A program made the position numbers and the translations under genes. A stretch of 64,000 nt of DNA from Longimicrobiales bacterium (GTDB lineage Bacteria; Gemmatimonadota; Gemmatimonadetes; Longimicrobiales; Gaopeijiaceae). Positions 1,702 through 3,136 of this stretch are shown one piece after another. Location: the NCBI GenBank assembly GCA_965202985.1, contig CBDBCF010000001.1, forward strand, positions 1,888,001 to 1,952,000, written 5' to 3'. The notes beneath the pieces were generated by a model. The model worked only from the letters and a program-made list of their open reading frames with translations, made no database searches and was not told the DNA's origin. Each line of letters begins with the position of its first letter. Positions within the stretch are counted from its first letter, which is position 1.

Positions 1702-2918
1702 AGGCGACACGGAAGGCCGTGGTTGCGATTGCGATAACGGCACTCTCGCCCGGGGCTGGGTGTTCGCCCGGTGCAGGGGAGGCGCCGCTGGTGCGAATCG
1801 GGAAAGAGCGGCTTGCCATCGCGTCGCCCGAGGACGATGCGCTGTGGCAGGTGCGCGATGTGGCGGAAAGCGCTGGAACGCTCTGGGCGCTCACGGAGGC
1901 GCCGCCGTTCGTCCACGTCTTTGGCCCCGAAGGCGACCGGATCGCCCGGTTCGGCCACAAGGGCGACGGCCCTGGCGACCTACGCTTTCCCCGAGCTCTG
2001 TGGCCGGACGTCACCTACGGCGGCGTGACCGTATGGGACCCAGGTCTTGGCAGGGCACAAAGGCTAAGCCTTGAGCCCGCAGGAACGCGTGCGGCGTCCC
2101 GGAGCATCCCTACATCGGGAGCGGTCCGCGCCGGCCTCGACGACGCGACCTTCGGCAATCCGTTTCGCGCGCGCCAAGATCGAACCGGCGCGGTGGTACT
2201 GGCCCACTACGGCGACATTCGGGTGACCCATCCCGACCAGCTGTGGCTTGGACGCTTGGTGAGGATCGGCCGCGGTCCTGGGGCCGAACCGGAGACGATC
2301 GTGGACTTCGCCAGAGACCTGCCGGGCGCGGCACTGCGTCCCGGCCAGCGTGGCCAGCCGCTGTTCCTGGGTCCGGTGCCGCTTTGGGACATTTGCCCGG
2401 ATCGGCGAACGACAGTCCTCGACCCCCTGGGCGGAACGCTGTACCTCTTGCGGCCCTCGCTAGGGGTCGCGTCTTGGCCGAATCGGGACTCGATCGCCCT
2501 TGCTTGGGAGCCCGAGCCGCTGCCGGCACAACAGCGGTTCGACTACATTCGGCACCAGATGCGAACCGAGGCCCACGGCCAAGACATAACCGATTCCGAA
2601 CTCGACGCCCTGGCGACCCAGGCTGCGCGGGACGCCGAGGACCTGTTCCCCGCCCAAGCGCCCATGGCCGTGGACATTCTGTGCGGTGCGGGCCGCGTTT
2701 GGCTGCAAGAGTTCGACGGCCCCAACCACCCTCTGGGCTACGGACCCGCATGGCGAACGATCTCGTTGGACGCAGGCGCGACGTCCCGGTTCGCCCGGAT
2801 CGCCTTTCCGGCAAACTTCTCGCCGCATCGCATTGTAGAATCGCAGGCACTCGGAACAATCAAGGACTCGACCGGGCTGGCGCGCCTGGCGCTGGTCGAA
2901 CTACCCCCGGAATCATGA
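1698..2918 (+). CDS. Second 6-bladed beta-propeller lipoprotein
   Basis: ATGA overlap at 1698-1701. Signal ends in GAGC. FGHKGDGPGDLRFP and VWD motifs, C-terminal GRVWLQ. Confidence 0.75.
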   Translation: MKATRKAVVAIAITALSPGAGCSPGAGEAPLVRIGKERLAIASPEDDALWQVRDVAESAGTLWALTEAPPFVHVFGPEGDRIARFGHKGDGPGDLRFPRALWPDVTYGGVTVWDPGLGRAQRLSLEPAGTRAASRSIPTSGAVRAGLDDATFGNPFRARQDRTGAVVLAHYGDIRVTHPDQLWLGRLVRIGRGPGAEPETIVDFARDLPGAALRPGQRGQPLFLGPVPLWDICPDRRTTVLDPLGGTLYLLRPSLGVASWPNRDSIALAWEPEPLPAQQRFDYIRHQMRTEAHGQDITDSELDALATQAARDAEDLFPAQAPMAVDILCGAGRVWLQEFDGPNHPLGYGPAWRTISLDAGATSRFARIAFPANFSPHRIVESQALGTIKDSTGLARLALVELPPES

Positions 2919-3136
2919 AAAACACCACGAAGTGGATCATCGCCGCCGTCGTCGCCAACGTCCTGCTCCTGCCGCTGACGCTCGCCCCCGAAAAGGAAGC
3001 CGTGGCCGCCCAGCCGCCCGCGACGACCGGCCTGTTCGACTGTTGCGGCGGGTCCGCGGCACGGGCATCTTTCTGCTGCCGTCGGTGTTGCTGGCGTCCG
3101 CTCAGTTGCGCCGGGTGTCCCCCCGCGACGCGCTGA
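2915..3136 (+). CDS. 73-aa secreted cysteine-rich peptide (signal peptide, pro-region, 8-Cys core)
   Basis: MKNTTKWIIAAVVANVLLLPLTLAPEKEAVAAQPPATTGLFDCCGGSAARASFCCRRCCWRPLSCAGCPPATR. ATG overlaps the upstream TGA (ATGA at 2915-2918). Classic n/h signal regions. Fills the gap before the next RBS. Confidence 0.8.
   Translation: MKNTTKWIIAAVVANVLLLPLTLAPEKEAVAAQPPATTGLFDCCGGSAARASFCCRRCCWRPLSCAGCPPATR

What the first reader, a model, noticed from the sequence alone, without database searches (positions are those of the whole stretch)
2915..3136. Small secreted 8-cysteine peptide with an STa-enterotoxin-like Cys framework
Seen: a 73-aa ORF, present in the supplied track only as the tail of a shadow ORF, is coupled by ATGA to the upstream gene. 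It has a Sec-type signal, a spacer, and the core CC-x9-CC-x2-CC-x5-C-x2-C (FDCCGGSAARASFCCRRCCWRPLSCAGC). Established: E. coli STa is a 72-aa pre-pro-peptide ending CCELCCNPACAGC (CC-x2-CC-x3-C-x2-C) and folded by DsbA. Here the last six Cys end in the same CAGC, the receptor-binding NPA is replaced by WRPLS, and there is an extra CC. Inference: this is a disulfide-rich secreted peptide (signal, toxin or host effector, or metal binder) of an apparently undescribed family. The STa similarity may be convergent.
Basis: partly seen in the sequence, partly recalled or inferred. Interest (0 to 1): 0.85.

Follow-up and report, generated by a model that had tools for sequence, protein, structure and literature searches.

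The report
Eight-cysteine peptide in sigma-factor cassette
This small gene is real and belongs to an undescribed family of exported eight-cysteine peptides in uncultured Gemmatimonadota bacteria that usually sit beside a disulfide-handling enzyme, a propeller-shaped lipoprotein and a membrane-controlled gene switch; the likeness to the E. coli diarrhoea toxin STa is a coincidence, and the peptide more likely belongs to a cell-surface signalling unit whose trigger is unknown.

Summary
The 73-aa ORF, its ATGA coupling and its Cys spacing are confirmed. It has four paralogues in its own genome and homologues in 22 of 401 Gemmatimonadota genomes, nearly all in one Longimicrobiales family. All eight Cys are invariant in the 20-row alignment, and dN/dS is 0.30. 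The STa reading fails: of 55 members, none has STa's three-residue Asn-Pro-Ala loop, and CAGC occurs in this one only.

Of 55 peptides, 49 lie near a TlpA-like thioredoxin, 48 near an ECF sigma, 48 near an LptF-fold membrane protein and 47 near a beta-propeller. The gene downstream here fuses the LptF-fold domain to an anti-sigma-like half. Split-type cassettes carry an ECF-type promoter; this locus does not.

Best reading (0.45): a Sec-exported, disulfide-folded ligand or subunit of an ECF envelope-signalling cassette. Rivals are a bacteriocin-like peptide and a metal/redox buffer. Binding, expression and function are untested. The scan had noted similar peptide/propeller/thioredoxin/ECF layouts for other peptide families on other DNA, but not this family. 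My paper searches found no description.

The parts
2915..3136 (+). 8-Cys peptide gene, 73 aa (P0001)
2915..3010 (+). Predicted Sec-type signal (aa 1-31/32) with a conserved Asn15 inside the hydrophobic stretch; cleavage inferred, not shown
   Evidence: Asn in 47 of 55; A-x-A site in 75 of 93, against 63 expected after shuffling; AlphaFold helix 3-23
3041..3118 (+). Cys core CC-x9-CC-x2-CC-x5-C-x2-C; family pattern CC-x8/9-[YF]CC-x2-CC[W/hydrophobic]-x4..6-C-x2..5-C
1698..2918 (+). NHL-type beta-propeller, predicted lipoprotein (Cys22), of a subfamily found next to these peptides; ATGA-coupled to the peptide
   Evidence: 393 bits against 70 or less for the other 76 G000 hits; NHL repeats, E 6e-18
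1150..1701 (+). Membrane-anchored TlpA-like thioredoxin, C-x-x-S active site, R-x-P-W cis-Pro motif, conserved Gln in the anchor helix; start codon uncertain
   Evidence: (E 3.6e-7)
3162..4382 (+). 406-aa membrane protein: six-helix LptF-fold domain without the beta-jellyroll, fused to a helical + 2-TM half that elsewhere is a separate gene directly behind an ECF sigma (anti-sigma position)
   Evidence: LptF Z 13.5-13.8, rmsd 3.8-4.4, 202-212 aligned; next row Z 8.1
24..1181 (+). First beta-propeller lipoprotein of the operon; belongs to the upstream cassette of a different 6-Cys peptide
1..27 (+). Tail of a C-x-x-C thioredoxin gene (G000 C1:1887515-1888027). Upstream of the window lie a 6-Cys signal-bearing ORF (C1:1887206-1887409) and, divergently, an ECF sigma (C1:1886438-1887049) and an AraC-type HTH gene (C1:1885715-1886374)

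Best explanation
The gene encodes a small protein exported by Sec, with a signal of about 31 aa, leaving about 41 residues held by four disulfides. It is one part of a self-contained envelope-signalling cassette. Shown: the gene, the family, the selection on it, the neighbours and their folds. Inferred steps: (1) the co-encoded membrane-anchored TlpA-like thioredoxin forms or shuffles the four disulfides, possibly docking through the conserved Asn of the peptide's signal helix and the conserved Gln of its own anchor helix; (2) the folded peptide is bound at the cell envelope by the dedicated propeller lipoprotein and/or the orphan LptF-fold membrane protein; (3) that protein controls an anti-sigma (fused to it at this locus), which releases the cassette's ECF sigma; (4) the sigma transcribes the peptide and thioredoxin genes, closing a feedback loop. 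The varied loops between the fixed Cys would give each of up to five cassettes per genome its own specificity, as in pheromone-receptor pairs.
For: Within 5 kb of 55 intact peptides: thioredoxin 49, ECF sigma 48, LptF-fold protein 48 (39 directly downstream), propeller 47, zinc-motif anti-sigma 29. Random G000 windows hold these in 1%, 5%, about 1-2% and 18% of cases. In 13 peptides from genomes not used to build the profiles, the membrane protein was nearby in 10 and the thioredoxin in 9; several contigs end early. Reverse test: of 21 strong thioredoxin hits in 121 family genomes, 19 lie within about 1.4 kb of an 8-Cys peptide, 1 beside a 6-Cys variant and 1 at a contig end. A TTGCAC-N17-(C/T)GT(C/T) ECF-type promoter precedes 27 of 29 split-type training cassettes, and 7 of 14 independent loci scored above the 99th background percentile. 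ECFs often autoregulate (PMC7826278, passages). The genome has VKOR and two DsbD/CcdA-type genes, so both oxidation and isomerisation are possible. Loops are under purifying selection (dN/dS 0.29), and core charge runs from -8 to +5. The LptF fold lacks the jellyroll, and I saw no LptB-like ATPase among the recurring neighbour families of these cassettes.
Against: No binding, expression or activity was shown. The membrane protein/sigma/anti-sigma unit often stands without this peptide: only 11 of 21 full-length six-helix genes and 8 of 14 fused genes have an intact peptide nearby. Seven of 55 peptides have no such membrane gene within 5 kb, so the sigma switch may only regulate the peptide and not sense it. 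The dedicated propeller subfamily is adjacent in only about 24 of 55. The promoter motif is missing from all 19 fused-type loci, including this one (score 0.3), and a search for a second motif found none. Profile comparison of the fused C-terminal half with the zinc-motif anti-sigmas gave only 16%; the anti-sigma reading rests on architecture and gene position. The counts are partly circular, because the profiles came from the same loci, and related genomes are not independent. Distance correlations did not single out one partner.
Confidence: 0.45

Rival explanations
1. A bacteriocin-like antagonistic peptide, made like bacteroidetocin with a dedicated thiol oxidoreductase and membrane protein; the propeller or the LptF-fold protein gives immunity or helps export, and the ECF only regulates.
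For: Bacteroidetocin regions hold a TM protein, a 4-Cys peptide and a thiol oxidoreductase (PMC6671954, passages). Several divergent copies per genome and decayed copies (core deleted in L102, broken in L047) fit an arms race.
Against: No double-glycine leader and no C39 peptidase/ABC exporter in the cassettes; the only C39 gene in G000 lies at another cluster. The core is net negative in 38 of 55 and positive in only 13. The loops are under purifying, not diversifying, selection.
Confidence: 0.22
2. A periplasmic metal (Cu/Zn) or thiol-redox buffer like bufferin or metallothionein: the TlpA-like protein keeps the Cys reduced for metal binding, and a zinc-motif anti-sigma/ECF pair induces it under stress.
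For: Eight invariant Cys in CC pairs. TlpA-type proteins are often reductants (recalled). Bufferins are Sec-exported Cys peptides controlled by an ECF/anti-sigma pair (PMC11626156, passages). A DoxX gene lies next to this locus.
Against: No MNIO (PF05114) found in G000, which is 92% complete. DoxX is not a recurring neighbour. The active site is C-x-x-S/T in 30 of 46 thioredoxins, which cannot work as a classic dithiol reductase. A simple chelator would not need up to five divergent copies, each with its own partners, nor the conserved aromatic residues beside the CC pairs.
Confidence: 0.17
3. The signal is not cleaved: the protein stays as a one-helix membrane subunit, and its Asn-bearing helix packs against the thioredoxin anchor or the LptF-fold protein as a fixed redox-sensing part.
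For: The uncharged run is long (19-22 aa in 66 of 93), and the A-x-A enrichment is small (75 against 63 by chance). Asn15 is conserved and the signal is under selection (dN/dS 0.37).
Against: The N-region charge is +2/+3 in 83 of 93, and the last A-x-A site clusters 8-11 residues before the first CC in 49 of 75.
Confidence: 0.1
4. An STa-like toxin or effector acting on an animal guanylate cyclase.
For: Signal peptide, similar precursor length (73 against 72 aa) and a shared CC-x2-CC...C-x2-C ending in this one member.
Against: STa's Cys5,6,9,10,14,17 spacing and its Asn11-Pro12-Ala13 binding turn (PMC3153297, passages) are absent from all 55 members. No PF02048 match among 20 members or in the genome. 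No 34-aa pro region.
Confidence: 0.03

Closest known systems
E. coli heat-stable enterotoxin STa (PF02048)
   Same: Sec signal, about 72-aa precursor, C-terminal core with CC pairs that probably needs periplasmic disulfide formation (PMC6356903, PMC3153297; passages).
   Different: 8 Cys instead of 6; x5 instead of x3 loop; no Asn-Pro-Ala; no long pro region; no profile match; own folding and regulatory cassette.
Bacteroidetocins (class IIf bacteriocins; PMC6671954, passages)
   Same: Small Cys peptide clustered with a thiol oxidoreductase and a multi-pass membrane protein.
   Different: Bacteroidetocins have a GG leader, a C39/ABC exporter, 4 Cys and a positive charge in the two first described; this family has a Sec-type signal, 8 Cys, mostly negative cores, a propeller lipoprotein and an ECF/anti-sigma.
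Bufferins (DUF2282/BUF + MNIO; PMC11626156, passages)
   Same: Sec-exported Cys peptide with an ECF sigma and anti-sigma close by.
   Different: No MNIO found in this genome; different Cys pattern; thioredoxin, propeller and LptF-fold partners instead of BufB/BufC.
ECF sigma / zinc-motif membrane anti-sigma systems (PMC7826278, passages)
   Same: Sigma70 r2+r4 proteins, H-x3-C-x2-C anti-sigma with two TM helices, conserved bipartite promoter in front of the cassette.
   Different: Coupled to an orphan LptF-fold six-helix protein, which at this locus is fused to the anti-sigma-like half, and to a disulfide-rich peptide. The main text has no hit for 'Gemmatimonad' or 'AraC'; its supplements were not read.
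LptF/LptG (PF03739)
   Same: Six-helix membrane fold (VIA Z 13.5-13.8); weak profile matches, mostly to TM4-6.
   Different: No beta-jellyroll, no partner ATPase seen in the cassette, 8-9% identity, all matches below the Pfam cut-off.

Membership tests
STa heat-stable enterotoxin | Six Cys spaced CC-x2-CC-x3-C-x2-C | tested here: not met
   Eight Cys; the x3 loop is x5 here and x4-x6 in all 55 members; STa spacing from PMC3153297
STa heat-stable enterotoxin | Asn-Pro-Ala receptor-binding turn | tested here: not met
   0 of 55 cores
STa heat-stable enterotoxin | 19-aa signal plus 34-aa pro region | tested here: not met
   Signal of about 31 aa and only about 10 residues before the first Cys; STa layout from PMC6356903
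STa heat-stable enterotoxin | Match to PF02048 | tested here: not met
   0 of 20 members at E<=1; 0 in G000. That search had no positive control over the cut-off
STa heat-stable enterotoxin | Activates guanylate cyclase C | not testable with these tools
   needs a cell assay
Bacteroidetocin / class IIf bacteriocin | Double-glycine leader and C39/ABC exporter in the cluster | tested here: not met
   Sec-type signal; the single C39 gene of G000 is at C1:1691729, not at any of the five cassettes
Bacteroidetocin / class IIf bacteriocin | Thiol oxidoreductase and multi-pass membrane protein in the cluster | tested here: met
   49 and 48 of 55; homology to the bacteroidetocin partners was not tested
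Bacteroidetocin / class IIf bacteriocin | Antibacterial activity | not testable with these tools
   needs an assay
Bufferin | MNIO (PF05114) in the cluster | tested here: not met
   0 in G000 (92% complete), control genome positive; not among the recurring neighbour families
Bufferin | Sec signal and ECF/anti-sigma control | tested here: met
   (promoter only in split-type cassettes)
ECF sigma / zinc-motif anti-sigma system | Sigma with regions 2 and 4 only | tested here: met
ECF sigma / zinc-motif anti-sigma system | Zinc-motif membrane anti-sigma | tested here: inconclusive
   Motif present in most split-type genes (zf-HC2 below cut-off); absent from the fused protein of this locus, profile match 16%; anti-sigma gene position in L103 and L104
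ECF sigma / zinc-motif anti-sigma system | Conserved autoregulated promoter | tested here: inconclusive
   27 of 29 split-type training loci, 7 of 14 independent loci, 0 of 19 fused-type loci including this one; that the cassette's sigma reads it is inferred
LptF/LptG LPS transporter subunit | Six-helix LptF/G membrane fold | tested here: met
LptF/LptG LPS transporter subunit | Periplasmic beta-jellyroll domain | tested here: not met
   All-helical model, short loop between TM3 and TM4

The most novel reading that the evidence does not exclude
A Gram-negative peptide-pheromone system of a new build: a self-made four-disulfide miniprotein, folded by its own thioredoxin that recognises it through an Asn-Gln helix contact in the membrane, is read by an LptF-fold protein that has turned from LPS transport to receptor duty and gates an ECF anti-sigma. 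Several orthogonal peptide-receptor pairs per genome would give kin or density sensing.
Probability: 0.22. Interest if true: 0.9.

Novelty: new variant of a known kind. Interest (0 to 1): 0.62.

Why it matters
Bacterial peptides with four disulfides and venom-peptide-like CC frameworks are, to my recall, rare; here is a natural library of at least 95 distinct sequences on one scaffold, with a candidate dedicated foldase. If the LptF-fold protein senses the peptide, that would be a new use of the LPS-transporter fold and a peptide-to-ECF signalling route in Gram-negative bacteria. Even if not, it defines unannotated small genes that standard gene calling hides under shadow ORFs, and removes a false toxin lead.

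Tried and rejected
Pfam and NCBIfam: no family for the peptide at E<=1; among 20 members, only 5 single weak unrelated hits. PDB sequence search with the peptide profile: 0 hits at E<=10; chains under 20 aa, such as mature STa, are not in that file. ESM Atlas: no usable hit for the peptide or the membrane protein. AlphaFold model of the peptide: low confidence (pLDDT 58.6, pTM 0.27), no fold match, so disulfide connectivity is unknown. No RNA holder listed; this says nothing about expression. Sigma-70 promoter and terminator scan: nothing above chance. Motif search for fused-type cassettes: score 449 against 329-356 for shuffles, sites scattered; rejected. Distance correlations between peptide and partners were all 0.5-0.7 and did not separate partners. 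Rows dropped: of 18 hits, P0018 and P0019 were unrelated repeats and P0027 was not fetched; of 59 profile hits, 4 were broken or lacked the framework; 4 weak thioredoxin hits were not examined. DoxX (4465-4884), the amidohydrolase and the MoxR/vWA genes downstream are neighbours, not parts. A link to the NVEALA family (recalled) found no paper and no Pfam match. Paper searches that returned no description of this family (listings only); one search was for STa. PMC10469786 (passages) has no hit for 'peptide' or 'RiPP' at word start. Habitat was not established by any search.

Full report
Observation. Window 2915-3136 (+) encodes 73 aa. Its ATG overlaps the stop of the upstream gene as ATGA, and the mechanical ORF list shows it only as the tail of a 297-aa ORF. 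My codon-usage score for the frame was slightly negative and my gene caller missed it, so its reality had to come from relatives.

It is a real gene family. The window lies in a 3.86-Mb genome. A six-frame scan found 6 matches to CC-x5..14-CC-x2-CC, 5 of them signal-bearing paralogues. A search of 1.84 billion representatives gave 18 hits, 15 with the framework; a profile search gave 49 proteins. In the 20-row alignment all eight Cys and the start are invariant, and an Asn inside the hydrophobic stretch is nearly so. The profile hit 22 of 401 phylum genomes, 20 of 70 in the own family and 1 of 166 in another, then 15 of 121 family genomes and 25 of 301 class genomes. Named records holding the neighbouring genes are titled Longimicrobiales or Gemmatimonadota MAGs. 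Over 20 close pairs (two of them near-duplicates), dN/dS was 0.30 overall and 0.29 in the loops, with 0 non-synonymous against 22 synonymous changes at Cys codons.

The STa likeness is accidental. STa has Cys at 5, 6, 9, 10, 14 and 17, an Asn11-Pro12-Ala13 binding turn, and a 19+34-aa pre-pro region (PMC3153297 and PMC6356903, passages). Among 55 intact members the loop after the third CC is x4-x6, never x3; the last loop is x5 in 46 and x2 in 5. Asn-Pro-Ala occurs in 0 and CAGC in 1, this one. No member of the alignment matches PF02048, nor does the genome. Only about 10 residues lie between the likely cleavage site and the first Cys.

The cassette. At this locus an ECF sigma and an AraC-type gene point away from an operon: 6-Cys peptide, C-x-x-C thioredoxin, propeller 1 (24-1181), C-x-x-S thioredoxin (1150-1701), propeller 2 (1698-2918), the 8-Cys peptide, and a 406-aa membrane protein (3162-4382). 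Within 5 kb of the 55 peptides lie a thioredoxin in 49, an ECF sigma in 48, the membrane protein in 48, a propeller in 47 and a zinc-motif anti-sigma in 29. These counts are partly circular, because the profiles came from the same loci. In 13 peptides from other genomes the membrane protein was near in 10 and the thioredoxin in 9, and one (L106) had no partner. In reverse, 19 of 21 strong thioredoxin hits flank an 8-Cys peptide, but only 11 of 21 six-helix genes and 8 of 14 fused genes do. So the thioredoxin is the tight partner, and the membrane/sigma switch is a semi-independent module.

What the partners are. The thioredoxin is TlpA-like (E 3.6e-7), has one anchor helix with a conserved Gln, and reads C-x-x-S in 22, C-x-x-C in 16 and C-x-x-T in 8 of 46. 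Propeller 2 is NHL-type, has a lipoprotein Cys, and belongs to a subfamily apart from the other propellers of the genome (393 bits against 70 or less). The membrane protein's first half is homologous to the stand-alone six-helix family (95%). Its model (pLDDT 79.8) matches LptF best (Z 13.5-13.8, rmsd 3.8-4.4, 202-212 residues; next row Z 8.1), but has no beta-jellyroll; the tool notes that helical bundles can reach Z near 13 by chance, so the weak but repeated PF03739 hits matter as support. Its second half has a helical domain and two TM helices, like the anti-sigmas, and is a separate gene directly behind the sigma in L103 and L104. The direct profile match to the zinc-motif anti-sigmas is weak (16%).

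Regulation. A TTGCAC-N17-(C/T)GT(C/T) motif stands before the peptide or the operon head in 27 of 29 split-type training cassettes, often on both strands of a divergent pair. In 14 independent loci, 7 scored above the 99th background percentile. It is absent from all 19 fused-type loci, including this one, and no second motif was found. Its layout is that of an ECF promoter (my knowledge); that the cassette's own sigma reads it is inferred.

Mechanism. Most likely (0.45) the peptide is exported, folded by its own thioredoxin with VKOR and DsbD-type support, and acts as ligand or subunit of the envelope sensor that gates the ECF sigma. A bacteriocin role (0.22) fits the bacteroidetocin-like pairing with an oxidoreductase (PMC6671954, passages), but there is no GG leader or C39 exporter at the cassettes and 38 of 55 cores are net negative. 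A metal or redox buffer (0.17) fits bufferin-like control (PMC11626156, passages), but no MNIO was found and most active sites are monothiol. An uncleaved membrane subunit (0.10) remains open, because the A-x-A signal is weak. Binding could not be modelled, the peptide model is low-confidence, and expression is untested.

Novelty. No Pfam, NCBIfam, PDB or Atlas match for the peptide, and none of my paper searches (listings only) showed a description. The library lacks most subscription papers, and supplements were not read. Earlier scan notes describe the same general layout for other peptide families on other DNA, but nothing matched this sequence or the LptF-like partner. In this genome, 9 of 11 other small signal-bearing Cys ORFs also lie within 4 kb of a propeller, so this family is one case of a wider design. 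I rate it a new variant of a known kind (ECF envelope signalling with a Cys peptide), interest 0.62.

Noticed in passing
L001:17206-18027 (G000 C1:1887206-1888027, just upstream of the window): A second, unrelated 6-Cys signal-bearing ORF with its own C-x-x-C thioredoxin and propeller heads the same operon, so two peptide cassettes are in tandem.
   Followed up: partly
L096:5493-5699 (+): Six-Cys variant beside a cassette thioredoxin that has lost Cys4 and Cys5 together and also the signal Asn. A single case, but it hints that these two Cys pair with each other or swap partners together.
   Followed up: partly
L102:about 5290-5400 (-); L047:17923-18182 (+); L116:about 5330-5810 (-): Decayed cassettes: a peptide with its Cys core deleted, a frameshifted copy, and remnants of propeller and peptide genes.
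   Followed up: no
P0007: A 128-aa protein in which the thioredoxin N-terminus is joined to the peptide; a deletion or an assembly chimera.
   Followed up: no
G000 C1:1690509-1692109 (-): Three tandem bacteriocin-like hydrophobic 4-Cys ORFs next to the genome's only C39 peptidase gene: a likely separate bacteriocin cluster.
   Followed up: no
G000 C1:576354, 1124685, 1216488, 1718599, 2570268, 2870035; C2:839938, 906930: Further unrelated small signal-bearing Cys-rich ORFs, each within 4 kb of a beta-propeller gene; the genome has 95 propeller-like ORFs.
   Followed up: partly
L089-L094, L097-L101, L103, L104, L107, L108: The LptF-fold six-helix protein (split or fused form), usually with an ECF sigma and an anti-sigma-like part, also occurs without the peptide, often beside propeller genes: an undescribed ECF module in its own right.
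   Followed up: partly
G000 C1:1887091-1887131 (between the sigma and the 6-Cys peptide): A short inverted repeat enclosing a possible ECF-type promoter with the family's -10 and spacer but another -35; seen once, not validated.
   Followed up: partly
window 4465-4884 (-), 5117-6529 (+), 6663-12556 (+): DoxX gene, secreted amidohydrolase, and a MoxR AAA operon followed by what look like vWA (Bat-type, label recalled) genes; ordinary neighbours.
   Followed up: no
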